Assembly: GCA_000002445.1 (NCBI GenBank)
Contig: AE017150.2
Span: 704,001-768,000, forward strand
Length of the DNA: 64,000 nucleotides
Reading direction: 5' to 3'
Source of the DNA: Trypanosoma brucei
Lineage: Eukaryota
This document shows positions 16,047-53,010 of this stretch, in pieces (positions within the stretch are counted from its first letter, which is position 1; every line of letters starts with the position of its first letter). The translations under genes were made by a program, and so were the position numbers. A model generated the notes under the pieces. The model was not told the origin of the DNA. It searched no databases and saw nothing but the letters and a program-made list of their open reading frames with translations.

Positions 16047-16048
<2 letters not shown>

Positions 16049-30511: not shown

Positions 30512-30514
<3 letters not shown>

Positions 30515-30548
<34 letters not shown>
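30515..30548. repeat. (AT)17 dinucleotide microsatellite inside a 3.6-kb AT-rich intergenic region.
   Basis: Directly visible: atatatat... over 34 bp, flanked by poly(A)/(GA)-rich sequence. Confidence 0.95.
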
Positions 30549-30552
<4 letters not shown>

Positions 30553-35968: not shown

Positions 35969-36065
35969 ATTTAGTTCTTTTCACGTAACGCGATAAATAG
36001 CGAAAGTTCTGCTAATAATAACAGTTTTTAATAAAGACGATAATAAATAATAATAATAATAATAA

Positions 36066-36090
36066 TGCCACTGAAAAAAAAAAAGAAAAA
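36066..36090 (-). promoter_or_regulatory. Polypyrimidine tract on the coding strand about 100-120 nt upstream of the kinase ATG. It is a candidate splice-acceptor signal.
   Basis: The + strand tgaaaaaaaaaaagaaaaacacc is a T/C run on the minus strand. Confidence 0.45.
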
Positions 36091-37128
36091 CACCGCGGTA
36101 GAATGTGTAAAAGAGAAAGGTCCGTAACAAATATACAAAGAAAAATTTATATATATTTGTACGAGAGTACACCGCGTCCCCCTCACTGGGTTAACTAAAT
36201 TGTTGTAAGGTGTCGAAAATAAAGACACCACCACGAAAGGAAAAGAAGTCAAAGATGGGAGAAAACAGGAGAAGAGTGATTCAAAAGTTGTGAATTGCAT
36301 TAACGAACGTGAAGCACAGAGAAAAAGAAGATGCAGACGGCGCCCCCAACCCAACCCAATTCACTCCCCAAAAAGGAACGGGCAGTGGTCAAAAAGGAGA
36401 AGGAAAGGAAACAATAAAATAAAACCACGTTTTCTTCATGCAAACATGTATAAAATCATGAGGTTATCCACTCTCACGAGACGCTTACTTGCGGAGTTTG
36501 CACCCTCACATGCTCATGGGTTCATACATTGAACACCTCCACGCCCACAACAGAGATCTGTCAACGAGGAAAGTTCGGGTAAACCTCACTATCACCCAAA
36601 TGGAATCCTCGAAAAAACAAAACAAAACAAAGAAACAACCATACAGTTTTTTAAAAATCTTCTTTGGAGAAACGTGCCCGAGCACGGAACACAATAAATA
36701 TCTAATGTGCTCATTTCCATTCCCTCCCCCTCGCGCAGTTGGGCTCAATACTCCTTGGCATACAACTGGCACTCGCTAAAATAGTTGCCCTCGATGACAA
36801 AAAGAAAACAACAACAAACAAACAAACAAACAAAGTTTAAATAGAACAAAACAACTAACTGATACGGATATACATAAGAGTAGTCGTTAATGGGGGGGGA
36901 AAGAATGAGAAAAGAGAGGGAAACTTTAATAATTTTTTCCTTGTTGTTTCCTTTTTACTCCGCTGCGCTTTCAGCACATCACATTAGTTTCACTTCCTCT
37001 CCCGAAACGATTAACGCACTGGTTCTTTGTCAATAACGATGTCCCAACTTAAACGCTAGTGCAATTCATATTTCTCCTCAAACATCGAGTAGGTGAACAC
37101 ACCCGCACACGCCAATACCCCTAACATA

Positions 37129-38706
37129 TTAAAGACGCGAAGCCTCAACATAGCGGGGAACGGCGCCCTTCATTTCCTCGGACGCCCTCGATGCAAAGCG
37201 GTCTTGGAAGCTCTTCTGGAACATGGTGACAAGTTCTTTCGTCGTCTCGTTGAACTGCTTCAGGTCCGTCCAAGCTTTGCGGGGGTTCAACAGGCTTGCG
37301 GGCACGTTCGCAACCCTCTTAGGAATGTGAAGGCCCCATCCGGGATACACTTCATAATCCGCCTGGTCAAGTGTACCGTCATGAATAGCATCAATGATGG
37401 CACGGGTGACGCGCAAAGGCATGCGCTTAGCCCCGCGGTCAGCACGGCCGCCTGCATAACCCGTGTTCAGCAGCCAAACGCGGCTATTGTGCTTTTCCAT
37501 CTTCTCAGCCAGTTGCTGGCCATAATGAGTGGCATGACGAACAAGGAATGGCCCACCGAAGCACGAGGAAAAAATGGGGCGAGCGACGCGAGCGCTTCCT
37601 GCTTCCACACCAGGGACGTTAGCCGTGTAGCCCATCACGAACCAGAACATAGCTTGAGCACTCGTTAGGCGTGCCACGGGAGGCATCACGCCAAAGGCAT
37701 CGTTCGTCAAGAAAATGATGTTCTTCGGGTGGCCCGCAACAGCCTTCGAAAGCGCACCGTCGATGTGCATGAGAGGGTAGGCAACGCGGGTGTTTTTGCA
37801 GATAGATTCATCATTAAAGTCAATTTCATGGGTTCTCCTGTCAAGAGTACAATTCTCGGCAACAGCGCCAAAGCGCACAGCCTCATAAATATCCTTCTCG
37901 GTTTCGGGGTTCAAACCAATCGCCTTAGCATAGCACCCGCCTTCAATGTTAAACACACCACGGTCCGTCCACACATGCTCGTCATCGCCAATGAGGTTGC
38001 GGCGCGGGTCCGCAGAGAGAGTCGTTTTGCCGGTTCCGCTGAGTCCAAAGAAGACCGTCACGTCACCGCTCTTACCCACGTTAGCGCTTGCATGCATGCA
38101 TAAGTGTCCCATGCGTGGCATCAATTCAAACATCACAGTCAGAATACCCTTCTTCATTTCACCAGCGTACTCTGTCCCAAGAATGACCTGTTCGCGGGTC
38201 TTAAAGTTCAGGGCCACTGACGTTGTTGAGGTAACACCGGGGACCGTCGGATCAGCCTTTGCCTCTCCGGCGTTGTAGATGACATAGTCCGGTTCACCAA
38301 AACTCTGCAGCTCCTCTAACGTAGGCACAATTAGCATGTTGCGCATGAAAAGTGCGTGGTAAGGGCGGGTCGTGTACACGCGCACCTTCAGGCGGTACCG
38401 TTCATCGTGGCCGGCAAAGCAGTCCATGACGAACAGGTGTTTGCAGGTGGCGAAGTAATCCTTTGCGATTGTCTTCAGTTTCTCAAATGATTCTTCGGTC
38501 AGCTTCATGTTTACGCTGCCCCAGTCCACATTGTCAGTAACGTCAGTGGTGTTTACAATACGCTTGTCGCGAGGAGAGCGGCCAGTCTTTGCGTATGAGC
38601 GTACGCTCAGGGCGCCACGAGCCGTCAGTTGGGAGTCCTTTTCAAGCTTAAGAGCCCACTCCACCAACTCGGGGGCGGTGAGATTCTTGTGAATTATAGG
38701 AGCCAT
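37129..38706 (-). CDS. PEPCK: Phosphoenolpyruvate carboxykinase (ATP-dependent), glycosomal, with a C-terminal SRL PTS1 signal.
   Basis: The ORF-track start is TTG. The ATG at 38706 gives MAPIIHKNLTAPELVEW..., 525 aa. ATP-PEPCK signatures are present: the kinase-1a loop 'GLSGTGKTTLS', plus 'YAGEMKKG' and 'FNIEGGCYAK' motifs. The protein ends ...RYVEASRL, a canonical PTS1. Confidence 0.92.
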   Translation of the reverse strand: MAPIIHKNLTAPELVEWALKLEKDSQLTARGALSVRSYAKTGRSPRDKRIVNTTDVTDNVDWGSVNMKLTEESFEKLKTIAKDYFATCKHLFVMDCFAGHDERYRLKVRVYTTRPYHALFMRNMLIVPTLEELQSFGEPDYVIYNAGEAKADPTVPGVTSTTSVALNFKTREQVILGTEYAGEMKKGILTVMFELMPRMGHLCMHASANVGKSGDVTVFFGLSGTGKTTLSADPRRNLIGDDEHVWTDRGVFNIEGGCYAKAIGLNPETEKDIYEAVRFGAVAENCTLDRRTHEIDFNDESICKNTRVAYPLMHIDGALSKAVAGHPKNIIFLTNDAFGVMPPVARLTSAQAMFWFVMGYTANVPGVEAGSARVARPIFSSCFGGPFLVRHATHYGQQLAEKMEKHNSRVWLLNTGYAGGRADRGAKRMPLRVTRAIIDAIHDGTLDQADYEVYPGWGLHIPKRVANVPASLLNPRKAWTDLKQFNETTKELVTMFQKSFQDRFASRASEEMKGAVPRYVEASRL

Positions 38707-39767
38707 TGTGTTATGATTGGGCAATACACAACGAAATATATAAGTATAAGAACGTAAAATGTTAATTGTTGAAGACGGCTGTAGAGGCTATCTTTGAAAC
38801 TTTATCTCCTACTTATATGCTTACTGTTCTCTTTTGTTATTGTCTTGTTCGCTAGTAGATAATCTATGAACAGCAGTAAAAAATAAGGGAAACGGAAACG
38901 AGCAGTTTGAAACATATGGAACAGAGGAAAGTTGATAAAGGGGACACCACACACCACCACCGCGATACCGTACCATTGGGTTTCTATGACATGCTCAAAA
39001 CTCTCGAGCCACATAAAAAACATGTGCCTTACACCAAAACATCAAAATCTTGAAAGGGAGATGAGAACAAATGAGTAAGAACGATGTTAAGTTAATACAT
39101 ACACTCACCCAAACATTACCCTAATATAACATTACCACCGCAAAAACATGTAACACAGTTCAGAAACATGTTTTGAATATCAAGCCATACAACATTGGTG
39201 CCGCACCCTGCTTCGTTAGACAGACCCGCCATCACCCATATAAAATCAAACGAAGTATTACAAGAAGAACAAAGAGTATATGACTACCCACACGCATGCC
39301 TCTTTGATTTGGATTATGGATACGTTCCGCAAAATGAAACTCATCCCAAAAATATTTTTAAAAAGGCCGTATTCTACTGAAGAAATTGCTGCGCATTTCC
39401 CAGCGGTGCCTTCTGATCTTCTTCCACTTGTCTCCACCAGCTTCTATGAATTTATGCTAACCAATTACACATGTCATCCTTTCAAACTATAAACAGCAGG
39501 AAAAGACGAACAGACACTCATTGCCTTCATGCACTTGTTATCAGCGATCATAAACATACCGTTTCCTTCCTTTAACTCATTCGATCCTGCAGATTCTGTG
39601 AGTAAACAAATTTGAACGAAGTTGGCGCTCACGCTCACTCCACTTTTGGTCACCGTAAATGAAGTCAGGAGAATATTACCGGGAGGGATCATTTCTAGGT
39701 GCATGTGTAGATGAACTGCACACTTTATGCACTAATAACAGGTTTGAAGTACTTACCTGGCATCTCC

Positions 39768-42700
39768 TCACGAGACCGCATTGGCTGAACGAGACCTTTT
39801 CCTTGTGCTACGTATGTCCATGACTTGCCGTACCTGTCGCTGTGTTTGTTCAGTGATTCTGGAATGATGTGATGACTCAACGGACAAGCTCACCCTCTCT
39901 CTGGTGGTTCTTCCTGCACCTAGCACAGGTGACCCCCGAATTTGCTGTTCCGGTGGGCTGCTGTGTTGTGCCACTTCTGATGACACACGACCACCATAGG
40001 TTACAACCCTTGTCTTGGCATATCGAAGCTCGTCCTCCAGACCTTTCTTATCGCCCTGCAACTTCTGAACTGCGCTTTCAAGTTGTAAGGTCTTCCTTGA
40101 TGCATTCTCCGCATCTTGTGCCGCCTTGGCCGCATCTTGTTCATACTGGTCAAGTTGTTCGTCCTTCTGTACAAGCTCATCCTGCAGCCGTTGAACCTCC
40201 TCATCCTTTCGTTGTAGAGCTTTTTCAAGGAACGTAACGCGCGCCTGCGACATGCGAATACGCGCTTCATCCCCCTCCACAACGGCCTTTTGACGAGAGG
40301 AACCGCTTTGCCGTTTTGGGGAACCACTCGTCGATGCAACCTCCTCGCGGAGTGTTTGCACCTGAGCCTCCATCAGACTGAATGCTTTCGCCAGTTCCTC
40401 AGCTTGCTGCCTGGCCGCAAGTTCACCCTCACGTTTCGATGCCTCCAGTGCGGAGAGTTTATTGCGGCTCGCTTGCAACTGTGCGGAGAGCGAGTTGTTC
40501 TGCTGTTTCAACCGACTAACTTCCTCACCTCGCTCACGACCAAGTTCATCGACCCTCTCGGTGAGAGTACGACGCTCAGCTATGAGTTCTTCACGTTGCT
40601 GACGCATTTCCACCAACTGTTGACGAATTTCATCTAAATCTTCCAGATACGCATTTGACTGCGACGAATTCTGTTCCAATGACAAGAGAAGTTCCTCTTG
40701 ATTGGATTCCAACTGACGGCAAGTTTTTCGGCAGAGCATTAGATCTGCGTGAAGGCTTGATATTTGTAGAAACTGGGCGAGATCTACAGCCTCTAAGTCC
40801 ACCGGTTCCGCCCCCACAGAACTCACATCAACGGAACCATCCACACCTAATACACTGTGCGCGCCACGAACGTCCTTTGCCCGAACAAATTGTTCCAACC
40901 GCTGGCACTCCTTCTGCAATTTAACTACTTCCAGACATTTTCTTTCCAAATCTTGCTCTAGCCGAACATTGCGCTCCTCCAACCTCCTCCTCGCATCATT
41001 AGAGCGATCAACGGATCTTCTTGCGACAATAAGTTCCGTCACGCAACCCTCACTCCTACGGTCATAAAATTCTTCAAAACCACGCTTCGTAGCGGAAACT
41101 TGAGCATGAAGTTCATCCACAACCCGAGACAACCTCTCAACATCTGCACCAACAGCACCATCACTATCCCCCACTTTACCATTCAAAGAAGAAACACTAT
41201 CCACAAGCAAACGATTACTAACCAAAACTTCATCTTTTAAAAAAGATATTTCCTCAACACTCCTCTCCAGCTTCTCCTTTGCTGTACGGAGTTCCTCCTC
41301 AAGTGTAGAAACACGTTCCTCCATCTCAGTTGCCTTTTCTAAAGCAGCTTCCCGTTCCTCAGCAAGTCGCTCAAGTGCTACTAAAGCAGATGCCAATTGT
41401 GTACCAAGATCCGTATCAGCATTCCTTACAGCAACATCAGACACAAGAGCAGCTCGTGCATTGCCATCCTTGTCAGACTGTGAGGTGCGTACACGAACTC
41501 CAGCGGCATTCAACTTATTCGTTAGCTGTATGATCTCTTCTTCTGCTTCACGAAGACGTTGTTGCGTGTGTTGCAATTCTGTTGTGAAAGCTGCCACAGT
41601 TTGTTCAGGTGTTGTACCGTAACTCTCCAAACGGGAAACAGTTTCCTCAAGTTGCGTAAGTTTTGTCACATGTAGCTCACGTTCTGCAGACATTTTCTTC
41701 GTGGTTGAGTGCGCTGTACGGAGTTCCTCCTCAAGTGTAGAAACACGTTCCTCCATCTCAGTTGCCTTTTCTAAAGCAGCTTCCCGTTCCTCAGCAAGTC
41801 GCTCAAGTGCTACTAAAGCAGATGCCAATTGTGTACCAAGATCTGTATCAGCATTCCTTACAGCAACATCAGACACAAGAGCAGCTCGTGCATTGCCATC
41901 CTTGTCAGACTGTGAGGTGCGTACACGAACTCCAGCGGCATTCAACTTATTCGTTAGCTGTATGATCTCTTCCTCTGCTTCACGAAGACGTTGTTGCGTG
42001 TGTTGCAATTCTGTTGTGAAAGCTGCCACAGTTTGTTCAGGTGTTGTACCGTAACTCTCCAAACGGGAAACAGTTTCCTCAAGTTGCGTAAGTTTTGTCA
42101 CATGTAGCTCACGTTCTGCAGACATTTTCTTCGTGGTTGAGTGCGCTGTACGGAGTTCCTCCTCAAGTGTAGAAACACGTTCCTCCATCTCAGTTGCCTT
42201 TTCTAAAGCAGCTTCCCGTTCCTCAGCAAGTCGCTCAAGTGCTACTAAAGCAGATGCCAATTGTGTACCAAGATCCGTATCAGCATTCCTTACAGCAACA
42301 TCAGACACAAGAGCAGCTCGTGCATTGCCATCCTTGTCAGACTGTGAGGTGCGTACACGAACTCCAGCGGCATTCAACTTATTCGTTAGCTGTATGATCT
42401 CTTCTTCTGCTTCACGAAGACGTTGTTGCGTGTGTTGCAATTCTGTTGTGAAAGCTGCCACAGTTTGTTCAGGTGTTGTACCGTAACTCTCCAAACGGGA
42501 AACAGTTTCCTCAAGTTGCGTAAGTTTTGTCACATGTAGCTCACGTTCTGCAGACATTTTCTTCGTGGTTGAGTGCGCTGTACGGAGTTCCTCCTCAAGT
42601 GTAGAAACACGTTCCTCCATCTCAGTTGCCTTTTCTAAAGCAGCTTCCCGTTCCTCAGCAAGTCGCTCAAGTGCTACTAAAGCAGATGCCAATTGTGTAC

Positions 42701-45700
42701 CAAGATCCGTATCAGCATTCCTTACAGCAACATCAGACACAAGAGCAGCTCGTGCATTGCCATCCTTGTCAGACTGTGAGGTGCGTACACGAACTCCAGC
42801 GGCATTCAACTTATTCGTTAGCTGTATGATCTCTTCTTCTGCTTCACGAAGACGTTGTTGCGTGTGTTGCAATTCTGTTGTGAAAGCTGCCACAGTTTGT
42901 TCAGGTGTTGTACCGTAACTCTCCAAACGGGAAACAGTTTCCTCAAGTTGCGTAAGTTTTGTCACATGTAGCTCACGTTCTGCAGACATTTTCTTCGTGG
43001 TTGAGTGCGCTGTACGGAGTTCCTCCTCAAGTGTAGAAACACGTTCCTCCATCTCAGTTGCCTTTTCTAAAGCAGCTTCCCGTTCCTCAGCAAGTCGCTC
43101 AAGTGCTACTAAAGCAGATGCCAATTGTGTACCAAGATCTGTATCAGCATTCCTTACAGCAACATCAGACACAAGAGCAGCTCGTGCATTGCCATCCTTG
43201 TCAGACTGTGAGGTGCGTACACGAACTCCAGCGGCATTCAACTTATTCGTTAGCTGTATGATCTCTTCTTCTGCTTCACGAAGACGTTGTTGCGTGTGTT
43301 GCAATTCTGTTGTGAAAGCTGCCACAGTTTGTTCAGGTGTTGTACCGTAACTCTCCAAACGGGAAACAGTTTCCTCAAGTTGCGTAAGTTTTGTCACATG
43401 TAGCTCACGTTCTGCAGACATTTTCTTCGTGGTTGAGTGCGCTGTACGGAGTTCCTCCTCAAGTGTAGAAACACGTTCCTCCATCTCAGTTGCCTTTTCT
43501 AAAGCAGCTTCCCGTTCCTCAGCAAGTCGCTCAAGTGCTACTAAAGCAGATGCCAATTGTGTACCAAGATCCGTATCAGCATTCCTTACAGCAACATCAG
43601 ACACAAGAGCAGCTCGTGCATTGCCATCCTTGTCAGACTGTGAGGTGCGTACACGAACTCCAGCGGCATTCAACTTATTCGTTAGCTGTATGATCTCTTC
43701 CTCTGCTTCACGAAGACGTTGTTGCGTGTGTTGCAATTCTGTTGTGAAAGCTGCCACAGTTTGTTCAGGTGTTGTACCGTAACTCTCCAAACGGGAAACA
43801 GTTTCCTCAAGTTGCGTAAGTTTTGTCACATGTAGCTCACGTTCTGCAGACATTTTCTTCGTGGTTGAGTGCGCTGTACGGAGTTCCTCCTCAAGTGTAG
43901 AAACACGTTCCTCCATCTCAGTTGCCTTTTCTAAAGCAGCTTCCCGTTCCTCAGCAAGTCGCTCAAGTGCTACTAAAGCAGATGCCAATTGTGTACCAAG
44001 ATCTGTATCAGCATTCCTTACAGCAACATCAGACACAAGAGCAGCTCGTGCATTGCCATCCTTGTCAGACTGTGAGGTGCGTACACGAACTCCAGCGGCA
44101 TTCAACTTATTCGTTAGCTGTATGATCTCTTCCTCTGCTTCACGAAGACGTTGTTGCGTGTGTTGCAATTCTGTTGTGAAAGCTGCCACAGTTTGTTCAG
44201 GTGTTGTACCGTAACTCTCCAAACGGGAAACAGTTTCCTCAAGTTGCGTAAGTTTTGTCACATGTAGCTCACGTTCTGCAGACATTTTCTTCGTGGTTGA
44301 GTGCGCTGTACGGAGTTCCTCCTCAAGTGTAGAAACACGTTCCTCCATCTCAGTTGCCTTTTCTAAAGCAGCTTCCCGTTCCTCAGCAAGTCGCTCAAGT
44401 GCTACTAAAGCAGATGCCAATTGTGTACCAAGATCCGTATCAGCATTCCTTACAGCAACATCAGACACAAGAGCAGCTCGTGCATTGCCATCCTTGTCAG
44501 ACTGTGAGGTGCGTACACGAACTCCAGCGGCATTCAACTTATTCGTTAGCTGTATGATCTCTTCTTCTGCTTCACGAAGACGTTGTTGCGTGTGTTGCAA
44601 TTCTGTTGTGAAAGCTGCCACAGTTTGTTCAGGTGTTGTACCGTAACTCTCCAAACGGGAAACAGTTTCCTCAAGTTGCGTAAGTTTTGTCACATGTAGC
44701 TCACGTTCTGCAGACATTTTCTTCGTGGTTGAGTGCGCTGTACGGAGTTCCTCCTCAAGTGTAGAAACACGTTCCTCCATCTCAGTTGCCTTTTCTAAAG
44801 CAGCTTCCCGTTCCTCAGCAAGTCGCTCAAGTGCTACTAAAGCAGATGCCAATTGTGTACCAAGATCCGTATCAGCATTCCTTACAGCAACATCAGACAC
44901 AAGAGCAGCTCGTGCATTGCCATCCTTGTCAGACTGTGAGGTGCGTACACGAACTCCAGCGGCATTCAACTTATTCGTTAGCTGTATGATCTCTTCTTCT
45001 GCTTCACGAAGACGTTGTTGCGTGTGTTGCAATTCTGTTGTGAAAGCTGCCACAGTTTGTTCAGGTGTTGTACCGTAACTCTCCAAACGGGAAACAGTTT
45101 CCTCAAGTTGCGTAAGTTTTGTCACATGTAGCTCACGTTCTGCAGACATTTTCTTCGTGGTTGAGTGCGCTGTACGGAGTTCCTCCTCAAGTGTAGAAAC
45201 ACGTTCCTCCATCTCAGTTGCCTTTTCTAAAGCAGCTTCCCGTTCCTCAGCAAGTCGCTCAAGTGCTACTAAAGCAGATGCCAATTGTGTACCAAGATCT
45301 GTATCAGCATTCCTTACAGCAACATCAGACACAAGAGCAGCTCGTGCATTGCCATCCTTGTCAGACTGTGAGGTGCGTACACGAACTCCAGCGGCATTCA
45401 ACTTATTCGTTAGCTGTATGATCTCTTCCTCTGCTTCACGAAGACGTTGTTGCGTGTGTTGCAATTCTGTTGTGAAAGCTGCCACAGTTTGTTCAGGTGT
45501 TGTACCGTAACTCTCCAAACGGGAAACAGTTTCCTCAAGTTGCGTAAGTTTTGTCACATGTAGCTCACGTTCTGCAGACATTTTCTTCGTGGTTGAGTGC
45601 GCTGTACGGAGTTCCTCCTCAAGTGTAGAAACACGTTCCTCCATCTCAGTTGCCTTTTCTAAAGCAGCTTCCCGTTCCTCAGCAAGTCGCTCAAGTGCTA

Positions 45701-48700
45701 CTAAAGCAGATGCCAATTGTGTACCAAGATCCGTATCAGCATTCCTTACAGCAACATCAGACACAAGAGCAGCTCGTGCATTGCCATCCTTGTCAGACTG
45801 TGAGGTGCGTACACGAACTCCAGCGGCATTCAACTTATTCGTTAGCTGTATGATCTCTTCTTCTGCTTCACGAAGACGTTGTTGCGTGTGTTGCAATTCT
45901 GTTGTGAAAGCTGCCACAGTTTGTTCAGGTGTTGTACCGTAACTCTCCAAACGGGAAACAGTTTCCTCAAGTTGCGTAAGTTTTGTCACATGTAGCTCAC
46001 GTTCTGCAGACATTTTCTTCGTGGTTGAGTGCGCTGTACGGAGTTCCTCCTCAAGTGTAGAAACACGTTCCTCCATCTCAGTTGCCTTTTCTAAAGCAGC
46101 TTCCCGTTCCTCAGCAAGTCGCTCAAGTGCTACTAAAGCAGATGCCAATTGTGTACCAAGATCCGTATCAGCATTCCTTACAGCAACATCAGACACAAGA
46201 GCAGCTCGTGCATTGCCATCCTTGTCAGACTGTGAGGTGCGTACACGAACTCCAGCGGCATTCAACTTATTCGTTAGCTGTATGATCTCTTCCTCTGCTT
46301 CACGAAGACGTTGTTGCGTGTGTTGCAATTCTGTTGTGAAAGCTGCCACAGTTTGTTCAGGTGTTGTACCGTAACTCTCCAAACGGGAAACAGTTTCCTC
46401 AAGTTGCGTAAGTTTTGTCACATGTAGCTCACGTTCTGCAGACATTTTCTTCGTGGTTGAGTGCGCTGTACGGAGTTCCTCCTCAAGTGTAGAAACACGG
46501 TCCTCCATCTCAGTTGCCTTTTCTAAAGCAGCTTCCCGTTCCTCAGCAAGTCGCTCAAGTGCTACTAAAGCAGATGCCAATTGTGTACCAAGATCCGTAT
46601 CAGCATTCCTTACAGCAACATCAGACACAAGAGCAGCTCGTGCATTGCCATCCTTGTCAGACTGTGAGGTGCGTACACGAACTCCAGCGGCATTCAACTT
46701 ATTCGTTAGCTGTATGATCTCTTCCTCTGCTTCACGAAGACGTTGTTGCGTGTGTTGCAATTCTGTTGTGAAAGCTGCCACAGTTTGTTCAGGTGTTGTA
46801 CCGTAACTCTCCAAACGGGAAACAGTTTCCTTAAGTTGCGTAAGTTTTGTCACATGTAGCTCACGTTCTGCAGACATTTTCTTCGTGGTTGAGTGCGCTG
46901 TACGGAGTTCCTCCTCAAGTGTAGAAACACGTTCCTCCATCTCAGTTGCCTTTTCTAAAGCAGCTTCCCGTTCCTCAGCAAGTCGCTCAAGTGCTACTAA
47001 AGCAGATGCCAATTGTGTACCAAGATCCGTATCAGCATTCCTTACAGCAACATCAGACACAAGAGCAGCTCGTGCATTGCCATCCTTGTCAGACTGTGAG
47101 GTGCGTACACGAACTCCAGCGGCATTCAACTTATTCGTTAGCTGTATGATCTCTTCCTCTGCTTCACGAAGACGTTGTTGCGTGTGTTGCAATTCTGTTG
47201 TGAAAGCTGCCACAGTTTGTTCAGGTGTTGTACCGTAACTCTCCAAACGGGAAACAGTTTCCTCAAGTTGCGTAAGTTTTGTCACATGTAGCTCACGTTC
47301 TGCAGACATTTTCTTCGTGGTTGAGTGCGCTGTACGGAGTTCCTCCTCAAGTGTAGAAACACGTTCCTCCATCTCAGTTGCCTTTTCTAAAGCAGCTTCC
47401 CGTTCCTCAGCAAGTCGCTCAAGTGCTACTAAAGCAGATGCCAATTGTGTACCAAGATCCGTATCAGCATTCCTTACAGCAACATCAGACACAAGAGCAG
47501 CTCGTGCATTGCCATCCTTGTCAGACTGTGAGGTGCGTACACGAACTCCAGCGGCATTCAACTTATTCGTTAGCTGTATGATCTCTTGCTCTGCTTCACG
47601 AAGACGTTGTTGCGTGTGTTGCAATTCTGTTGTGAAAGCTGCCACAGTTTGTTCAGGTGTTGTACCGTAACTCTCCAAACGGGAAACAGTTTCCTCAAGT
47701 TGCGTAAGTTTTGTCACATGTAGCTCACGTTCTGCAGACATTTTCTTCGTGGTTGAGTGCGCTGTACGGAGTTCCTCCTCAAGTGTAGAAACACGTTCCT
47801 CCATCTCAGTTGCCTTTTCTAAAGCAGCTTCCCGTTCCTCAGCAAGTCGCTCAAGTGCTACTAAAGCAGATGCCAATTGTGTACCAAGATCCGTATCAGC
47901 ATTCCTTACAGCAACATCAGACACAAGAGCAGCTCGTGCATTGCCATCCTTGTCAGACTGTGAGGTGCGTACACGAACTCCAGCGGCATTCAACTTATTC
48001 GTTAGCTGTATGATCTCTTCCTCTGCTTCACGAAGACGTTGTTGCGTGTGTTGCAATTCTGTTGTGAAAGCTGCCACAGTTTGTTCAGGTGTTGTACCGT
48101 AACTCTCCAAACGGGAAACAGTTTCCTCAAGTTGCGTAAGTTTTGTCACATGTAGCTCACGTTCTGCAGACATTTTCTTCGTGGTTGAGTGCGCTGTACG
48201 GAGTTCCTCCTCAAGTGTAGAAACACGTTCCTCCATCTCAGTTGCCTTTTCTAAAGCAGCTTCCCGTTCCTCAGCAAGTCGCTCAAGTGCTACTAAAGCA
48301 GATGCCAATTGTGTACCAAGATCCGTATCAGCATTCCTTACAGCAACATCAGACACAAGAGCAGCTCGTGCATTGCCATCCTTGTCAGACTGTGAGGTGC
48401 GTACACGAACTCCAGCGGCATTCAACTTATTCGTTAGCTGTATGATCTCTTCCTCTGCTTCACGAAGACGTTGTTGCGTGTGTTGCAATTCTGTTGTGAA
48501 AGCTGCCACAGTTTGTTCAGGTGTTGTACCGTAACTCTCCAAACGGGAAACAGTTTCCTCAAGTTGCGTAAGTTTTGTCACATGTAGCTCACGTTCTGCA
48601 GACATTTTCTTCGTGGTTGAGTGCGCTGTACGGAGTTCCTCCTCAAGTGTAGAAACACGTTCCTCCATTTCAGTTGCTCTTGCTAGTGTAGCATCGTGCT

Positions 48701-50711
48701 GTTCTGCTAGCTGTGTTAGGGCTGCCAAGGCGGAGGATAACTGTGTTTTCAATCCGGCATTATATGTTCTCAGTGATCCTTCTGTATCATTTGGTGTTAA
48801 ACTTCCACTTCTTGTTGTACTTGTTGAGCGGCCCCGAGCTCCAGCCGCATTCAGCTTATTCGTTAGTTGCACGTTCTCTTCCCCTGCCTCGCGAAGGCAC
48901 TTCTGTGTGTGCTGCAGTTCCGTTTTCAGTGCTTCTATGACTTCTGTTAAACCTTCTTCTGTCATCTTGTGCTTGATTATGGCTTGTTCGTACTCGTCAT
49001 TTTGAGCTGACGACAATTCCTTGTTATTCCCTGTGGCATTGTGACCGCTATCGGCTTTTTGTGGTTGGTTTAGTTTCTCATGTTGCACATTTGCAGTAAT
49101 ATATTGCGAATCATTTCCTGACCTTGATGGCATCTGTGTCTCTCTTGTCACTAACTCTATTGATTCCTCTTTATTCCCGCCTTGTGGAATGTTCTTTTCA
49201 CCGCTTATGGAGCCTGATATTTGTATTTTTTCTCTGAGTTGATGATGAAAGTTGTTGATCACATAGCTATCTTCGGTGATCCTTTCTTGAGCAGTCTGCA
49301 GTTGGTTTTGTGTGTGGGAAAGGCTTTTCGTTAGTTCTGCAGCGTGTTCTCTCGATTTCTGAAGGGCGGCCTCTAGTTGCTGCTGAAGATTTTGGAGGTT
49401 AAATATTTCTTCGCTCGCTTTTTGGAGCAGGATGTCCTTCGCTTCTCCTTCCCTACGGAGCAAGAAGAACTGCTGTTGAAGTGTGTGCTGTTGTAGTTCC
49501 AGCATTCTGTACACTTCATCATCGTTGTTTGTATTTGTGTCTGTTTTGTTCTCGTCTGTTGTCTCCATTTGTGTGTCAGGTGCCCCACGTTGTACTGCTT
49601 GCTCAGTTTTGCGCTGTAGTAGTTGTGAAGTAAGATCCTCAATCGTCCTGTGCTGTTCGTCACACATTTCCTGCAATTGTTCCTTTTGCTCCTGCAGTGC
49701 GGTGTTTTGTTGGTGAAGGTTGTTTCGCGCTTGTATTGCTTCCCTAAGGCTTTCTTCGTAGTCTTCACGTTCTTTTCGAAGAAGCTGCTGTAGATCCGTT
49801 ATCTCTGTACGTGTCACCTGTAACAGGTACCTTGATTGCGCCAATTCCTCTTCATGACTCGTGTTTTCACTTTTCCCCATTTCTGCAGCGACAGCGTGGT
49901 GCCTAATACACTCACGTTCCCTTTCAAGCTCTTTAGTTAGCTCCAGAAGTTCTTCCTCAAGTTTTTTGTTCTTCTCTTCAAGCGCACTTATCTCTTGACG
50001 GCCAACATGTCGTTCACCTCCAGATGGGACATATTTGCCTTGTGAATTTACGGACACTAGCTTATCCCTAAGCTGTCGCACCTCCCCTTCCGATTCGTCA
50101 AGTTTTTGACGCAGTTCTTCGTTTTCTCGCTTGCAGCGGTATATTACGTCGTTGCATGCACTATGCTCGCGCAAAAGGCAATCAAAACGATGATTTTTGT
50201 CCTGCAACTCACGATGGAGGCGTGCAGCCTCATTTTTGTAGTCATCACGCAACTGATACGCACGGCTAAGGGTATTATGCACATGAGTCATATCTCCCTC
50301 CAAGCGATTTGTGTACTCCATGCGCTCCTCCTCTGACATGTCCGCCAAGCCCCGACGCCCAGCGAAGATGGTGGGGTGCATTCCCATAGGAGCAGTTTGT
50401 TTGGAGCTGAGAAGCGGCATTATGCTGGGTTCCTCACGTGACATGCCGACGAGTGCAGAATTAGTCAGCAACCCCGTAGGAGATGGTAAAGGATTGTTGA
50501 GACGAGGTATGGAATCCGTTGCGGCCAATCCTCGCACATTAATTGGTGCCGCCAGCCGCGGTGTGAGCAGCGGCGGTGTCTCATGTGTCAAACCTCCTTG
50601 GATGCTGCTGGCGCTTCGGTTGCTTCTCACATGCCCAATATTTTCGGGTGGTGGAGTCCACGTTCGTGTGAAGAAACCGGGGTACCGCCGTGCGTCCCCA
50701 GCAGAAAACAT
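39768..50711 (-). CDS. NUP-1: Giant coiled-coil protein of 3647 aa with about 17 tandem 144-aa repeats. It is consistent with the kinetoplastid lamin-like nucleoskeletal protein NUP-1.
   Basis: ATG confirmed at 50711. Heptad-rich E/L/R/K/Q composition runs throughout. A central array of near-identical 432-bp units encodes ...EERVSTLEEELRTAHSTTKKMSAERELHVTKLTQLEETVSRLESYGTTPEQTVAAFTTELQHTQQRLREAEEEIIQLTNKLNAAGVRVRTSQSDKDGNARAALVSDVAVRNADTDLGTQLASALVALERLAEEREAALEKATEM.... The size, the 144-aa period and the copy number match what I recall of the published description of T. brucei NUP-1. Confidence 0.75.
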   Translation of the reverse strand: MFSAGDARRYPGFFTRTWTPPPENIGHVRSNRSASSIQGGLTHETPPLLTPRLAAPINVRGLAATDSIPRLNNPLPSPTGLLTNSALVGMSREEPSIMPLLSSKQTAPMGMHPTIFAGRRGLADMSEEERMEYTNRLEGDMTHVHNTLSRAYQLRDDYKNEAARLHRELQDKNHRFDCLLREHSACNDVIYRCKRENEELRQKLDESEGEVRQLRDKLVSVNSQGKYVPSGGERHVGRQEISALEEKNKKLEEELLELTKELERERECIRHHAVAAEMGKSENTSHEEELAQSRYLLQVTRTEITDLQQLLRKEREDYEESLREAIQARNNLHQQNTALQEQKEQLQEMCDEQHRTIEDLTSQLLQRKTEQAVQRGAPDTQMETTDENKTDTNTNNDDEVYRMLELQQHTLQQQFFLLRREGEAKDILLQKASEEIFNLQNLQQQLEAALQKSREHAAELTKSLSHTQNQLQTAQERITEDSYVINNFHHQLREKIQISGSISGEKNIPQGGNKEESIELVTRETQMPSRSGNDSQYITANVQHEKLNQPQKADSGHNATGNNKELSSAQNDEYEQAIIKHKMTEEGLTEVIEALKTELQHTQKCLREAGEENVQLTNKLNAAGARGRSTSTTRSGSLTPNDTEGSLRTYNAGLKTQLSSALAALTQLAEQHDATLARATEMEERVSTLEEELRTAHSTTKKMSAERELHVTKLTQLEETVSRLESYGTTPEQTVAAFTTELQHTQQRLREAEEEIIQLTNKLNAAGVRVRTSQSDKDGNARAALVSDVAVRNADTDLGTQLASALVALERLAEEREAALEKATEMEERVSTLEEELRTAHSTTKKMSAERELHVTKLTQLEETVSRLESYGTTPEQTVAAFTTELQHTQQRLREAEEEIIQLTNKLNAAGVRVRTSQSDKDGNARAALVSDVAVRNADTDLGTQLASALVALERLAEEREAALEKATEMEERVSTLEEELRTAHSTTKKMSAERELHVTKLTQLEETVSRLESYGTTPEQTVAAFTTELQHTQQRLREAEQEIIQLTNKLNAAGVRVRTSQSDKDGNARAALVSDVAVRNADTDLGTQLASALVALERLAEEREAALEKATEMEERVSTLEEELRTAHSTTKKMSAERELHVTKLTQLEETVSRLESYGTTPEQTVAAFTTELQHTQQRLREAEEEIIQLTNKLNAAGVRVRTSQSDKDGNARAALVSDVAVRNADTDLGTQLASALVALERLAEEREAALEKATEMEERVSTLEEELRTAHSTTKKMSAERELHVTKLTQLKETVSRLESYGTTPEQTVAAFTTELQHTQQRLREAEEEIIQLTNKLNAAGVRVRTSQSDKDGNARAALVSDVAVRNADTDLGTQLASALVALERLAEEREAALEKATEMEDRVSTLEEELRTAHSTTKKMSAERELHVTKLTQLEETVSRLESYGTTPEQTVAAFTTELQHTQQRLREAEEEIIQLTNKLNAAGVRVRTSQSDKDGNARAALVSDVAVRNADTDLGTQLASALVALERLAEEREAALEKATEMEERVSTLEEELRTAHSTTKKMSAERELHVTKLTQLEETVSRLESYGTTPEQTVAAFTTELQHTQQRLREAEEEIIQLTNKLNAAGVRVRTSQSDKDGNARAALVSDVAVRNADTDLGTQLASALVALERLAEEREAALEKATEMEERVSTLEEELRTAHSTTKKMSAERELHVTKLTQLEETVSRLESYGTTPEQTVAAFTTELQHTQQRLREAEEEIIQLTNKLNAAGVRVRTSQSDKDGNARAALVSDVAVRNADTDLGTQLASALVALERLAEEREAALEKATEMEERVSTLEEELRTAHSTTKKMSAERELHVTKLTQLEETVSRLESYGTTPEQTVAAFTTELQHTQQRLREAEEEIIQLTNKLNAAGVRVRTSQSDKDGNARAALVSDVAVRNADTDLGTQLASALVALERLAEEREAALEKATEMEERVSTLEEELRTAHSTTKKMSAERELHVTKLTQLEETVSRLESYGTTPEQTVAAFTTELQHTQQRLREAEEEIIQLTNKLNAAGVRVRTSQSDKDGNARAALVSDVAVRNADTDLGTQLASALVALERLAEEREAALEKATEMEERVSTLEEELRTAHSTTKKMSAERELHVTKLTQLEETVSRLESYGTTPEQTVAAFTTELQHTQQRLREAEEEIIQLTNKLNAAGVRVRTSQSDKDGNARAALVSDVAVRNADTDLGTQLASALVALERLAEEREAALEKATEMEERVSTLEEELRTAHSTTKKMSAERELHVTKLTQLEETVSRLESYGTTPEQTVAAFTTELQHTQQRLREAEEEIIQLTNKLNAAGVRVRTSQSDKDGNARAALVSDVAVRNADTDLGTQLASALVALERLAEEREAALEKATEMEERVSTLEEELRTAHSTTKKMSAERELHVTKLTQLEETVSRLESYGTTPEQTVAAFTTELQHTQQRLREAEEEIIQLTNKLNAAGVRVRTSQSDKDGNARAALVSDVAVRNADTDLGTQLASALVALERLAEEREAALEKATEMEERVSTLEEELRTAHSTTKKMSAERELHVTKLTQLEETVSRLESYGTTPEQTVAAFTTELQHTQQRLREAEEEIIQLTNKLNAAGVRVRTSQSDKDGNARAALVSDVAVRNADTDLGTQLASALVALERLAEEREAALEKATEMEERVSTLEEELRTAHSTTKKMSAERELHVTKLTQLEETVSRLESYGTTPEQTVAAFTTELQHTQQRLREAEEEIIQLTNKLNAAGVRVRTSQSDKDGNARAALVSDVAVRNADTDLGTQLASALVALERLAEEREAALEKATEMEERVSTLEEELRTAHSTTKKMSAERELHVTKLTQLEETVSRLESYGTTPEQTVAAFTTELQHTQQRLREAEEEIIQLTNKLNAAGVRVRTSQSDKDGNARAALVSDVAVRNADTDLGTQLASALVALERLAEEREAALEKATEMEERVSTLEEELRTAHSTTKKMSAERELHVTKLTQLEETVSRLESYGTTPEQTVAAFTTELQHTQQRLREAEEEIIQLTNKLNAAGVRVRTSQSDKDGNARAALVSDVAVRNADTDLGTQLASALVALERLAEEREAALEKATEMEERVSTLEEELRTAKEKLERSVEEISFLKDEVLVSNRLLVDSVSSLNGKVGDSDGAVGADVERLSRVVDELHAQVSATKRGFEEFYDRRSEGCVTELIVARRSVDRSNDARRRLEERNVRLEQDLERKCLEVVKLQKECQRLEQFVRAKDVRGAHSVLGVDGSVDVSSVGAEPVDLEAVDLAQFLQISSLHADLMLCRKTCRQLESNQEELLLSLEQNSSQSNAYLEDLDEIRQQLVEMRQQREELIAERRTLTERVDELGRERGEEVSRLKQQNNSLSAQLQASRNKLSALEASKREGELAARQQAEELAKAFSLMEAQVQTLREEVASTSGSPKRQSGSSRQKAVVEGDEARIRMSQARVTFLEKALQRKDEEVQRLQDELVQKDEQLDQYEQDAAKAAQDAENASRKTLQLESAVQKLQGDKKGLEDELRYAKTRVVTYGGRVSSEVAQHSSPPEQQIRGSPVLGAGRTTRERVSLSVESSHHSRITEQTQRQVRQVMDIRSTRKRSRSANAVS
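41270..49000 (-). repeat. 432-bp tandem repeat array. About 17 near-identical copies span 41270-48700, and one diverged copy lies at about 48700-49000.
   Basis: Identical antisense ORFs recur at 41701 + n x 432 in the ORF track. The copies differ only at a few SNP positions, such as gatcCgtatc versus gatcTgtatc and ttcTtctgc versus ttcCtctgc. Confidence 0.95.
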
Positions 50712-50847
50712 TTAGTTGACCACTTCTTAATGTGATCCTGACTCCTGCTGTCGCTGTGGCTATTTCAACGCTTCTCCTTATTGTTGTCTGTTTGTGTATT
50801 TGTATGTGCTAACCCTTTCGATTTCCTTCGTCAAAATGAACGAATAA

Positions 50848-50890
50848 ATGAGAAAAAAAGGATAAAAGAGAAGAAAAAAGGAAAAGACTA
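50848..50890 (-). promoter_or_regulatory. Polypyrimidine tract on the coding strand about 140-180 nt upstream of the NUP-1 ATG. It is a candidate trans-splice acceptor signal.
   Basis: The + strand atgagaaaaaaaggataaaagagaagaaaaaaggaaaagac is a long C/T run on the minus strand. Confidence 0.5.
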
Positions 50891-51906
50891 GTTGAAGTTT
50901 TCTCTCCCCCTTGTCTGCCTATATATATATATATATTTAAAACTTTGACGATTAAGTCAATATTCCAAATTAGTGTGGAGTCCTCACCGGCATCAGGCAT
51001 TCCACTATGCTTCAGCCCATCCTCACGAACTATTCATCATTTTTTTTTGTTACTTTGATCTTCCTCCTGCCATTTATGAAGTATTAATCCACACAGGGTG
51101 CTGTGAAGTCTGGCCGTTACATTTACTACATGATAATATAGCGAAACGAAGGGTGGCGAGATTTTTTGAACAAATGAGAATATCGCCTAGAGGTTTCGAA
51201 ACCGAACATTGTAAAGGTCGAAGGATTCGGTCCATTGGTTCGTATCTGTGAGACAAAGTTTGGTGATGGAACCGGAAAAAAAAATACAAAGTAGAAGGAT
51301 GAAAAACACTCCCTCACATACGGCTACAAAAATATGCTTGTATGCGTAAAAATAAATAAATACCAGAACTCTTCGGAGTATGTGGCATCCATTTTTAAGC
51401 GCATCATTCAACTGGGCACTATTATTACGATTCCGCTCAACTCACCACATCGCCGGTTAGCCGATCAGCGTTGTTTTGTGAGAGTTCGTAGGCGCATATA
51501 CATGCGAGTGACCGTAAAAGAAAATAAAACGAGCGATAAAATGAAAAAAAAAAGGAAAAACAATTAAAAAGGAAAGCCCGGTATTTCCTCATCCCACTTT
51601 GTGCAGCACTTTCTCAGTGTAAAGACCAGTCCGGTTGAGACTGTTGTGTAATAACTTAGTGCGGGGAAATACCTTAGTTTTAGTACCCTACCTTACACAC
51701 TGCATGTATCTCAGAAGAAACGAGATCACACACTTCCGCAAAGCCTATAACCCATTTTTCTTCATGTTGGTATCCATCACAAAAAGCACACTCGAGTAAA
51801 CACGCTCACGTACCGCTATGACTCTCAAACGCATAGATACACACGTACAAACCTTCCCCCTTAGTTTCTTTTTCTTTTTTTTTGTGTGTGTGTGCTATTT
51901 CGTCCC

Positions 51907-53010
51907 TTATCGCGAGGCTCCATGCTCAACAATCATAATATCACCATCTTGCATGGTGTATGTGGCATCCACATAGGCCATTTTAAGCTCTGCCGCCTCG
52001 AGATTTGGTTGTTCAATAAATTTATCCCATGCCATTATTTTTGCCCGGTGAAAGTGCTGCTCCATGTCGGAGTGAATTTCGCCACTAGCCTCTTTTGCCG
52101 TCGCTCCTACGCGTGTGGTCCAGCCGTGAGCCATCTGCGGACCAATTGTGAAGAAGGACTGCAGTCGTAGTAGTTTATAGGCCCGGCGCAGTAGCAATTC
52201 GCCATGCGGTGTATCTACTCCATATTCTTTCAAAAAGAGAAGCCGCTCCTCGCGGGAGTTAAGTTGAGATGTTTGCTCTTCCAAAGAAGCGCACACACGA
52301 CACGTCCGTTCAGAGCCAAGCGCACTCTCAACCATATGCGTGTAGCGGTTTCCACTCGCAATAGTCGATTCATCTGTATTAAGAACAAACATCATGGGTT
52401 TGGCGGAGAGAAGATTGTACTGCTGTAAAATCTGACGCTCTTCGTCAGTCTTCAACGACATATCCGCCGCAGGTTTGCCTTCCTGCAACCATGATACGAC
52501 GCGTTGGCAAATCACCAGTGAGGGATCTCCAACCTTTCGTATCTTCGCTTGCTTACTAAGAATTTTTTCCATTGCTTCCAGATCCGCCAGCACCAGCTCA
52601 TTTACAATAGTGCAGACATCTTCCAGTGGCGTTGGTGTACCGAATCCATCTCTAGCGCTCTCAAAGCAACGCACCATATGCAAAAGAATGGTGCATGGCC
52701 GAATATCACTGAGAAACTTATTTCCAAGACCTGCGCCTTTTGACGCCCCCTCAATGAGGCCCGCCACATCCGCGAGGTCGATCTCGACGTCAACAATTTT
52801 ATGCGCCCCGCTAAAGGTTGCCAGCCGGCGCAGCCGATCATCCGCAACAGGGACGCGGGCAAGGTTGGCGTCTATGGTACAAAATGGGAAATTTCCTGTT
52901 TTTGCCTGCTGACTGCAGGTGAGGGCATTAAACAGAGTAGACTTTCCAACATTGGGAAGGCCAATGATTCCAGCACCACGTCGCCGCAGTTGCAATGACG
53001 AAGTGTGCAT
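51907..53010 (-). CDS. Obg-like ATPase of the YchF/OLA1 family (GTP-binding protein).
   Basis: ATG confirmed at 53010. The G1 motif is GIIGLPNVGKSTLFNALT and the G3 motif is DVAGLIEGAS. A YchF-specific 'NLLSAKPMMFVLNTDE' replaces the canonical NKxD. The C-terminal TGS-like region reads EIHSDMEQHFHRAKIMAWDKF. At 367 aa the length is typical of YchF. Confidence 0.8.
   Translation of the reverse strand: MHTSSLQLRRRGAGIIGLPNVGKSTLFNALTCSQQAKTGNFPFCTIDANLARVPVADDRLRRLATFSGAHKIVDVEIDLADVAGLIEGASKGAGLGNKFLSDIRPCTILLHMVRCFESARDGFGTPTPLEDVCTIVNELVLADLEAMEKILSKQAKIRKVGDPSLVICQRVVSWLQEGKPAADMSLKTDEERQILQQYNLLSAKPMMFVLNTDESTIASGNRYTHMVESALGSERTCRVCASLEEQTSQLNSREERLLFLKEYGVDTPHGELLLRRAYKLLRLQSFFTIGPQMAHGWTTRVGATAKEASGEIHSDMEQHFHRAKIMAWDKFIEQPNLEAAELKMAYVDATYTMQDGDIMIVEHGASR

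What the first reader, a model, noticed from the sequence alone, without database searches (positions are those of the whole stretch)
41270..48700. Repeat copies differ almost only at synonymous sites, with two interleaved SNP haplotypes
Across the 17 units the recurrent differences are synonymous. One is ACG/ACA (Thr) inside NADTDLGTQ. The other is GAA/GAG (Glu) inside REAEEEIIQ. The haplotypes are interleaved: the T variant occurs at units starting 41762, 43058, 43922 and 45218, and the C variant elsewhere. Only three singleton amino-acid changes occur, each in one copy: E to Q (REAEQEIIQ), E to D (MEDRVSTL) and E to K (LTQLKETVS). This pattern points to strong concerted evolution by gene conversion or unequal crossing-over together with purifying selection on the protein unit. 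The interleaving gives usable internal markers for reconstructing the array's history.
Basis: seen in the sequence. Interest (0 to 1): 0.5.

Follow-up and report, generated by a model that had tools for sequence, protein, structure and literature searches.

The report
NUP-1 lamina gene repeat array

Summary
Window 41281..48668 (minus strand) holds 17.1 copies of a 432-bp unit with only five variable columns. Three are singleton amino-acid changes (E>Q, E>K, E>D).

The ORF (39768..50711, 3647 aa) is an exact match to T. brucei TREU927 NUP-1 (XP_951625.1). DuBois et al. 2012 already describe its 17 near-perfect 144-aa repeats and the three substitutions.

Concerted evolution is supported. A PacBio assembly of T. 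b. equiperdum has 26.1 units. All 26 carry three differences from all 17 TREU927 units, and its internal polymorphisms are different and all nonsynonymous.

"Almost only synonymous" is overstated, since three of the five variable sites are nonsynonymous. Purifying selection is not shown by the counts (P = 0.36; pooled 5 synonymous to 9 nonsynonymous, P = 0.25).

The "interleaving" involves four haplotypes. It is confined to the 3' eleven units, and its order rests on a Sanger-era assembly that reads of 700 bp or less cannot resolve uniquely.

Verdict: ordinary and already known, with low interest.

The parts
39768..50711 (-). NUP-1 gene (Tb927.2.4230), 3647 aa plus stop
   Evidence: ORF list and translation. 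Exact-sequence match to XP_951625.1 / AAQ15880.1, 'NUP-1 protein, putative [T. brucei brucei TREU927]'. DuBois 2012 gives the length as 3647 aa.
48669..50711 (-). N-terminal non-repeat domain (681 aa)
   Evidence: Boundary taken from the lag-432 identity profile. 99.2% nucleotide identity to T. b. equiperdum, dN/dS 0.85.
48669..49049 (-). Diverged, in-register 'unit 0' directly abutting the array
   Evidence: Local protein alignment to the unit consensus: 52 of 133 residues identical, ending in ...ATE exactly at the array boundary. 71 of 90 nt identical in the best DNA stretch.
41281..48668 (-). Tandem array, 17.1 copies of 432 bp (144 aa), five variable columns
   Evidence: TRF; column analysis.
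46077..48668 (-). Units 1-6 (5' in the gene). They carry neither synonymous variant but all three singleton amino-acid changes (47588 E>Q, 46832 E>K, 46500 E>D).
   Evidence: A terminal variant-free block of 6 or more units has P about 0.0012 under random unit order.
41325..46076 (-). Units 7-17, a mixed block with haplotypes AG, GA, AG, AG, GA, GG, AA, AG, AG, GA, AG. GAA (plus-strand T) at 41541, 42405, 42837, 43269, 44565, 44997, 45861. ACA (plus-strand T) at 41844, 43140, 44004, 45300.
   Evidence: All four two-site haplotypes are present.
39768..41280 (-). C-terminal non-repeat domain (504 aa plus stop)
   Evidence: 98.7% nucleotide identity to equiperdum, dN/dS 0.27.
39783..39815 (-). 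Residues 3633-3643 (IRSTRKRSRSA), the published predicted nuclear localisation signal
   Evidence: Sequence read; position quoted by DuBois 2012.

Best explanation
The region is the central repeat domain of the Trypanosoma brucei nuclear lamina protein NUP-1. [quoted passage not shown]

The DNA units stay nearly identical because the array turns over by misaligned homologous exchange between units: unequal sister-chromatid or allelic crossing-over, slippage, and short conversion tracts. New mutations are either lost or spread through the whole array, so arrays in different lineages differ by array-wide fixed changes while each array is internally almost uniform.

The two recurrent synonymous variants and three singletons are mutations caught part-way through this process in the TREU927 array. 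They behave as near-neutral drift inside the array. They do not by themselves show selection.

Shown here: gene identity, the variant pattern, array-wide fixed differences, the copy-number difference, and the diverged edge copy. Inferred: the molecular mechanism (unequal exchange versus conversion), and the reality of the exact unit order.
For: Identity:
- Exact match to XP_951625.1 NUP-1.
- The literature describes 17 near-perfect 144-aa repeats, 3647 aa, and three conservative substitutions among repeats.
- The 10-kb flanks are collinear and 97-98% identical to the NUP-1 locus of T. b. equiperdum, with the same neighbouring genes.

Concerted evolution:
- The equiperdum PacBio array has 26.1 units.
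- Columns 83 (Leu, synonymous), 144 (T>A) and 431 (Glu, synonymous) differ in all 26 units from all 17 TREU927 units. TREU927's two synonymous polymorphisms are absent from equiperdum, which has its own variants: col 174 T/A in 16 of 26, col 216 E>K in 2, col 13 V>A in 1.
- The three visible gambiense units share the three equiperdum states and carry two further changes in every visible unit, D>E and A>T.
- Diversity is 0.0029 and 0.0017 within the arrays against 0.0105 between them, with a minimum of 3 differences between any TREU927 and any equiperdum unit.
- Array-wide synonymous divergence is 2/106.7 = 0.019, similar to the flank dS of 0.009 and 0.029. Theory predicts that fully homogenised arrays substitute at about the single-copy rate, so this is the expected result.
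- The edge copy is diverged.
- Another trypanosome orthologue (P0015) has a 157-aa unit whose copies differ by 0-3 residues but which is only 64/137 identical to the T. brucei unit. DuBois 2012 makes the same point for all trypanosomatids.

Structure: an AlphaFold single-sequence model of two units is mostly helical, with helices at 2-45, 50-84 and 116-189 and one low-confidence linker at about 85-115.
Against: - The mechanism is not observed directly. With two informative sites, the four-haplotype pattern cannot separate conversion from intra-unit unequal crossover or recurrent mutation.
- The TREU927 unit order and the count of 17 come from a BAC/Sanger-era reference (my recollection of El-Sayed et al. 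2003; the paper is not held). The array contains a 1727-bp exact internal repeat. Even with ideal k-mer multiplicities it has 72 alternative reconstructions at 700-bp spans and 40,320 at 500 bp.
- The equiperdum assembly has six 1-bp homopolymer deletions in the array, so its singletons may also be errors.
- The gambiense array is collapsed behind a 100-N gap, so 'fixed' there means fixed in three visible units.
Confidence: 0.85

Rival explanations
1. One reading: strong purifying selection on the protein unit explains why the recurrent differences are synonymous. Nonsynonymous variants are prevented from spreading in the array.
For: - In TREU927 the two intermediate-frequency variants are synonymous and the three nonsynonymous ones are singletons, giving piN/piS about 0.13.
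- Blocks of the unit are conserved between trypanosome species: ELxxTQxRLREAEE, QLxSALxALExLAEERE, ERVxxLEE, TVSRLE.
- Across the T. brucei group, the four rare nonsynonymous variants lie in predicted helices. Three of the four high-frequency or fixed ones lie in predicted non-helical segments (one-sided Fisher about 0.07, my calculation).
Against: - Site counts fit neutrality: 2 synonymous to 3 nonsynonymous, P = 0.36. Pooled across the T. brucei group, 5 to 9, P = 0.25. Among transitions, 5 of 11 are synonymous against 34.5% expected, P = 0.32.
- The chance that the two synonymous sites are the two commonest of five is 0.1.
- In equiperdum all three internal polymorphisms are nonsynonymous, and one is at 16 of 26 units.
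- T>A is fixed array-wide. D>E and A>T are present in all visible gambiense units.
- Nonsynonymous sites are not depleted at cross-species conserved positions: 3 of 8, P = 0.49.
- Genome-wide, 49% of coding differences between T. b. gambiense and T. b. brucei 927 are nonsynonymous. The array is therefore no more 'synonymous-only' than the average gene.
Confidence: 0.25
2. The interleaved order, and perhaps the copy number of 17, is an assembly product. The variants are real, but their assignment to particular units in the reference is arbitrary or partly wrong.
For: - The longest exact internal repeat is 1727 bp at a lag of 5 units. There are 40,320, 540 and 72 alternative reconstructions at exact spans of 500, 600 and 700 bp, and still 2 at 800-1200 bp.
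- Other assemblies of this gene are visibly broken at the array: gambiense has a gap and 3 units, and equiperdum is split into six ORFs. DuBois Table S1 notes orthologues split during assembly.
- A later paper quotes the protein at about 450 kDa, against 406 kDa predicted from 17 repeats.
Against: - BAC-based finishing with mate pairs and insert sizing can constrain such arrays.
- The non-random block structure, with units 1-6 free of both synonymous variants (P about 0.001), is not what arbitrary read placement would be expected to give.
- A long-read assembly of a sister lineage shows a comparable mosaic of a two-state site along its array.
Confidence: 0.3
3. The array is simply young. A recent burst of amplification from one unit happened, without ongoing homogenisation, and the few differences are mutations since that burst.
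For: - Very low diversity: 1.25 differences per pair of units.
Against: - Every examined trypanosomatid orthologue has its own internally uniform array.
- Lineages that differ by only about 1% in the flanks already differ by array-wide fixed changes and by nine units. This requires turnover after the lineages split.
- All four two-site haplotypes occur.
Confidence: 0.1

Closest known systems
T. brucei NUP-1 (Tb927.2.4230), lamin-like nucleoskeletal protein (Rout & Field 2001; DuBois et al. 2012, PMC3313915; Padilla-Mejia et al. 2021, PMC8255026)
   Same: It is this gene. The protein sequence is identical, with 3647 aa, 17 near-perfect 144-aa repeats, a C-terminal NLS at 3633-3643, and three conservative substitutions among the repeats already shown in their Figure S1. 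The paper also states that repeats are nearly identical within each orthologue but diverge between species.
   Different: In the passages I retrieved, that paper never uses the word 'synonymous' and does not give the two synonymous DNA polymorphisms, their positions along the array, or a copy-number comparison between T. brucei lineages. Here the comparison is 17.1 versus 26.1 units.
Concerted evolution of tandem gene arrays in T. brucei (Jackson 2007, PMC1855330)
   Same: Same organism and same process. Tandem duplicates evolve in concert, probably by frequent gene conversion, while residual variation persists.
   Different: That survey deals with arrays of whole genes, not with in-frame repeats inside one ORF. 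In an intragenic array every exchange must also preserve the reading frame, and it changes protein length.
Classical concerted evolution of tandem arrays (rDNA, satellite DNA, large intragenic repeats in coiled-coil or surface proteins)
   Same: Within-array uniformity, array-wide fixed differences between lineages, copy-number variation, and diverged edge copies are all seen here.
   Different: Nothing distinctive. This comparison rests on general knowledge and was not tested further.

Membership tests
Trypanosomatid NUP-1 | Sequence identity with the characterised T. brucei protein | tested here: met
   Exact full-length match to XP_951625.1 / Q586V1.
Trypanosomatid NUP-1 | Architecture: N-terminal domain, central array of near-perfect repeats (17 x 144 aa in TREU927), C-terminal domain with NLS at 3633-3643 of 3647 | tested here: met
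   compared with the paper text.
Trypanosomatid NUP-1 | Single syntenic orthologue in related genomes | tested here: met
   The equiperdum and gambiense loci have the same neighbours: a DSPc phosphatase and a YchF-type GTPase upstream, PEPCK and a protein kinase downstream. The flanks are 97-98% identical.
Trypanosomatid NUP-1 | Predominantly alpha-helical / coiled-coil | tested here: inconclusive
   A single-sequence AlphaFold model of two units is about 80% helix, mean pLDDT 78.9. Coiled-coil pairing itself was not tested. The literature reports COILS and CCHMM_PROF predictions.
Trypanosomatid NUP-1 | Localisation at the nuclear periphery and lamina function | not testable with these tools
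   Experimental, reported in PMC3313915 and PMC8255026.
Concerted evolution of a tandem array | Copies are more alike within an array than between arrays of related lineages, with array-wide fixed differences | tested here: met
   Three columns are fixed between 17 TREU927 and 26 equiperdum units. Diversity is 0.0029 and 0.0017 within arrays against 0.0105 between them. The gambiense units agree.
Concerted evolution of a tandem array | Copy-number change between lineages, as a signature of unequal exchange | tested here: met
   17.1 versus 26.1 units. Caveat: this rests on one Sanger-era and one PacBio assembly.
Concerted evolution of a tandem array | Edge copies escape homogenisation | tested here: met
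   In-register unit 0 is only 39% identical at the protein level.
Concerted evolution of a tandem array | Identifiable conversion tracts, or a duplication history read from internal markers | tested here: inconclusive
   All four two-site haplotypes are present. Runs tests are not significant. I estimate the 1727-bp match at a lag of 5 units to be expected by chance about 0.6 times.
Purifying selection on the repeat unit | Significant excess of synonymous over nonsynonymous variation | tested here: not met
   P = 0.36 for TREU927 and 0.25 pooled; 0.32 among transitions. The equiperdum polymorphisms are all nonsynonymous.
Purifying selection on the repeat unit | Conservation of unit motifs across species | tested here: met
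   64/137 residues identical to the 157-aa unit of P0015 and 59 identical to a T. cruzi unit, concentrated in helical blocks.

The most novel reading that the evidence does not exclude
The NUP-1 repeat array may be length-polymorphic and may turn over very fast within the T. brucei species complex. The evidence is 17 versus 26 units, which is +1296 aa or about 190 nm of extended helix, together with array-wide fixation of three changes at only about 1% flank divergence. If so, the length of the lamina 'spoke' would differ by a third between lineages. The published size of 406 kDa and 17 repeats would then be a property of one reference assembly, not of the species.
Probability: 0.5. Interest if true: 0.35.

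Novelty: already known. Interest (0 to 1): 0.15.

Why it matters
The gene is important. NUP-1 is the trypanosome functional analogue of lamins and is needed for nuclear shape, pore spacing, telomere positioning and VSG silencing.

The finding itself adds only two synonymous DNA markers to a repeat structure that is already published. Two points have practical value.
- The reference copy number and unit order should not be taken as established. A long-read assembly of a sister lineage has nine more units.
- The within-array SNP pattern cannot be used to argue for selection.

If the length difference is real, it offers a natural experiment on whether spacer length sets the mesh size of the lamina.

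Tried and rejected
- A homology search with the full 3647-aa protein timed out. Searches with the C-terminal part, the N-terminal domain and a single unit returned few proteins, and no further T. brucei strains.
- An exact-product contig look-up for the window protein found nothing.
- The chromosome II sequencing paper (El-Sayed 2003) is not held, so how the array was finished could not be checked.
- L003 and L004 (gambiense) never appeared in the script folder, so the sequence was read with get_sequence and pasted in.
- I looked for a higher-order repeat or segmental duplication in the haplotype order. The 1727-bp exact match at a lag of 5 units is about what chance gives with two markers, so I rejected it as evidence.
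- Runs tests for interleaving or clustering of each variant were not significant in TREU927 or in equiperdum.
- A test for depletion of nonsynonymous sites at cross-species conserved positions was not significant (3 of 8, P = 0.49).
- A name for orthologue P0015 could not be obtained. It is the UniParc entry UPI000218B3B0, presumably T. congolense or T. vivax, but this is unverified.
- CpG-type mutational explanations for ACG>ACA were considered and not pursued.
Full report
**1. What is there**

Tandem Repeats Finder reports one array at 41281..48677, with period 432, 17.1 copies, 99% matches and no indels. It lies in frame inside the only long ORF of the region, 39768..50711 on the minus strand, 3647 codons. 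Every ORF over 150 aa in the 64-kb window whose frame is not already occupied by a longer minus-strand ORF is on the minus strand, and G+C is 46%. That is the look of a kinetoplastid polycistronic unit.

I cut the 17 full units in the codon register and compared them column by column. This gives exactly five variable columns out of 432.

| Column | Change | Units | Window position |
|---|---|---|---|
| 215 | GAG/GAA, Glu, in REAEEEIIQ | 10 vs 7 | 41541, 42405, 42837, 43269, 44565, 44997, 45861 |
| 344 | ACG/ACA, Thr, in NADTDLGTQ | 13 vs 4 | 41844, 43140, 44004, 45300 |
| 216 | GAA>CAA, E>Q | unit 3 only | 47588 |
| 108 | GAG>AAG, E>K | unit 5 only | 46832 |
| 8 | GAA>GAC, E>D | unit 6 only | 46500 |

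Every factual statement in the finding is therefore correct.

**2. Where the wording overreaches**

Three of the five variable sites are nonsynonymous. The phrase "almost only synonymous" holds only if one counts copy-by-site departures from the consensus, which gives 11 against 3.

The two synonymous sites define four haplotypes, not two. Reading (col 215, col 344) along units 1-17 gives GG x6, then AG, GA, AG, AG, GA, GG, AA, AG, AG, GA, AG. The six 5'-most units carry neither variant, and a terminal variant-free block that long arises in about 0.1% of random orders. All three singleton amino-acid changes sit in that block. Interleaving is thus a property of units 7-17 only. Within that stretch, runs tests show no departure from a random order.

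**3. What the gene is**

The translated ORF is present, residue for residue, in the public protein collection as XP_951625.1 / AAQ15880.1 / Q586V1, "NUP-1 protein, putative [Trypanosoma brucei brucei TREU927]", on a 1,193,948-bp record. DuBois et al. 2012 (PMC3313915) describe the following:

- NUP-1 is a protein of over 400 kDa, almost entirely coiled-coil, at the nuclear periphery.
- It has a predicted NLS at residues 3633-3643 of 3647.
[quoted passage not shown] The sequence at 3633-3643 is IRSTRKRSRSA.

Later work places the termini in hubs and the repeat region between them (PMC8255026; review PMC10953052). A single-sequence AlphaFold model of two units is mostly helical. It has helices at 2-45, 50-84 and 116-189, the last running across the unit boundary. 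It also has a low-confidence linker at about residues 85-115, mean pLDDT 78.9.

The protein part of the finding is therefore already published. Only the two synonymous DNA markers are an addition.

**4. Test of concerted evolution with other lineages**

Homology searches with the C-terminal and N-terminal parts recovered NUP-1 fragments of T. b. equiperdum and T. b. gambiense, and their loci were fetched.

*T. b. equiperdum.* The two loci come from assembly GCA_003543875.1, record CM010673.1. They overlap exactly by 9537 bp and were merged. That assembly holds 26.1 units, nine more than TREU927. Six units have single 1-bp deletions, each in a short homopolymer run. These are almost certainly long-read consensus errors, and they explain why the gene is annotated in six pieces.

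Relative to the TREU927 consensus:

- All 26 units carry A>G at col 83 (Leu, synonymous), A>G at col 144 (Thr>Ala) and G>A at col 431 (Glu, synonymous).
- None carries either TREU927 synonymous variant.
- The array has its own polymorphisms, all nonsynonymous: col 174 Thr/Ala in 16 of 26 units, col 216 Glu>Lys in 2, and col 13 Val>Ala in 1.

*T. b. gambiense DAL972.* The record has a 100-N gap and only three visible units. These share the three equiperdum states and add Asp>Glu (col 284) and Ala>Thr (col 306) in every visible unit, plus one synonymous polymorphism at col 233.

*Diversity and divergence.* Mean pairwise difference is 0.29% within the TREU927 array, 0.17% within equiperdum and 1.05% between them. 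No TREU927/equiperdum pair differs at fewer than three sites. The single-copy flanks of the same gene differ by 0.8% (N-terminal) and 1.3% (C-terminal). Array-wide synonymous divergence is 2/106.7 = 0.019, which sits between the flank dS values of 0.009 and 0.029.

*Edge copy.* Directly 5' of the array lies an in-register, diverged copy (48669..49049), with 52 of 133 residues identical. This is the usual fate of an edge unit.

*Another species.* An orthologue from another trypanosome (P0015, unnamed UniParc entry) has a 157-aa unit. Its copies differ at 0-3 residues, but it is only 64/137 identical to the T. brucei unit.

All of this is the classical signature of concerted evolution with expansion and contraction. 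Jackson 2007 (PMC1855330) documented the same process for tandem gene arrays of this organism.

**5. Test of purifying selection**

The consensus unit has 106.7 synonymous and 325.3 nonsynonymous sites. The counts are as follows.

| Comparison | Synonymous : nonsynonymous | P (excess of synonymous) |
|---|---|---|
| TREU927 variable sites | 2 : 3 | 0.36 |
| All 14 variable or fixed sites in the three T. brucei lineages | 5 : 9 | 0.25 |
| Transitions only (neutral expectation 34.5% synonymous) | 5 of 11 synonymous | 0.32 |

Further points:

- The frequency argument (synonymous variants common, nonsynonymous ones rare) has a chance probability of 0.1 with five sites. It is contradicted by equiperdum, where a Thr/Ala variant is in 16 of 26 units, and by array-wide amino-acid replacements.
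- Genome-wide, 49% of coding differences between T. b. gambiense and T. b. brucei 927 are nonsynonymous (PMC2854126). The array is not unusually "synonymous".
- Nonsynonymous sites are not depleted at positions conserved across species (3 of 8, P = 0.49).
- One weak hint remains. The four rare nonsynonymous variants lie in predicted helices, while three of the four high-frequency or fixed ones lie in predicted non-helical segments (one-sided Fisher about 0.07, my calculation).
- Long-term constraint on the helical blocks is evident from cross-species conservation.

**6. Reliability of the order**

The array contains an exact 1727-bp internal repeat at a lag of five units. I counted the sequences compatible with the exact multiset of k-mers, which is an idealised best case.

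| Exact span (bp) | Compatible reconstructions |
|---|---|
| 500 | 40,320 |
| 600 | 540 |
| 700 | 72 |
| 800-1200 | 2 |
| 1500 or more | 1 |

As I recall it, the TREU927 chromosome II reference is BAC/Sanger based. I could not check how this array was finished. The order and the count of 17 are therefore provisional. The predicted mass from 17 repeats is 406 kDa, while a later paper quotes about 450 kDa. On the other hand, the block structure of the variants is not what arbitrary read placement would be expected to produce.

**7. Verdict**

The object is the well-characterised NUP-1 repeat domain. Concerted evolution is supported and was already stated in the literature at species level. The selection inference is not supported by the cited pattern, and the markers are too few and too uncertain in order to reconstruct a history.

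The only mildly new result is the 17 versus 26 unit difference, together with array-wide fixed changes between T. brucei lineages. This needs confirmation with long reads.

Noticed in passing
window 8285..10167 (minus strand), inside ORF 6848..10594: A second intragenic tandem array: 54 bp (18 aa, ALNATETVEATEVAEAAE) x 33-34.6 copies, 96% matches. Here the recurrent differences between copies are mainly nonsynonymous (Ala/Thr in 11 of 33, Ala/Val in 9 of 33), with one recurrent synonymous site (ACA/ACG, 25/7). This contrasts with the NUP-1 array. The gene was not identified.
   Followed up: partly
L001+L002 merged (T. b. equiperdum CM010673.1), array at merged coordinates 12043..23310: The NUP-1 array has 26.1 units, against 17.1 in the window. 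That is 1296 more residues if both assemblies are right.
   Followed up: partly
L001/L002, units 2, 14, 15, 19, 22 and 24 of the equiperdum array: Six single-base deletions, each in a short homopolymer run, break the NUP-1 ORF into six annotated 'genes' (646, 1876, 509, 365, 221 and 806 aa). These are probably long-read consensus errors rather than a pseudogene.
   Followed up: partly
L004 9691..9790 (T. b. gambiense DAL972 FN554965.1): A 100-N gap is followed by about 200 bp that do not belong to NUP-1 and then only 3 repeat units. The array is collapsed in this assembly and the gene is annotated as two fragments.
   Followed up: partly
window 45861 / 47588 region (unit columns 215 and 216): The recurrent synonymous site (col 215) and a nonsynonymous site (col 216) are adjacent bases. 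Col 216 is hit independently in two lineages: G>C (E>Q) in TREU927 and G>A (E>K) in equiperdum. This may be a local mutational hotspot or chance.
   Followed up: no
window 1..64000: All long ORFs not explained by overlap with another ORF are on the minus strand. The neighbours of NUP-1 match the equiperdum and gambiense loci: a dual-specificity phosphatase and a YchF-type GTPase upstream, PEPCK and a protein kinase downstream.
   Followed up: partly
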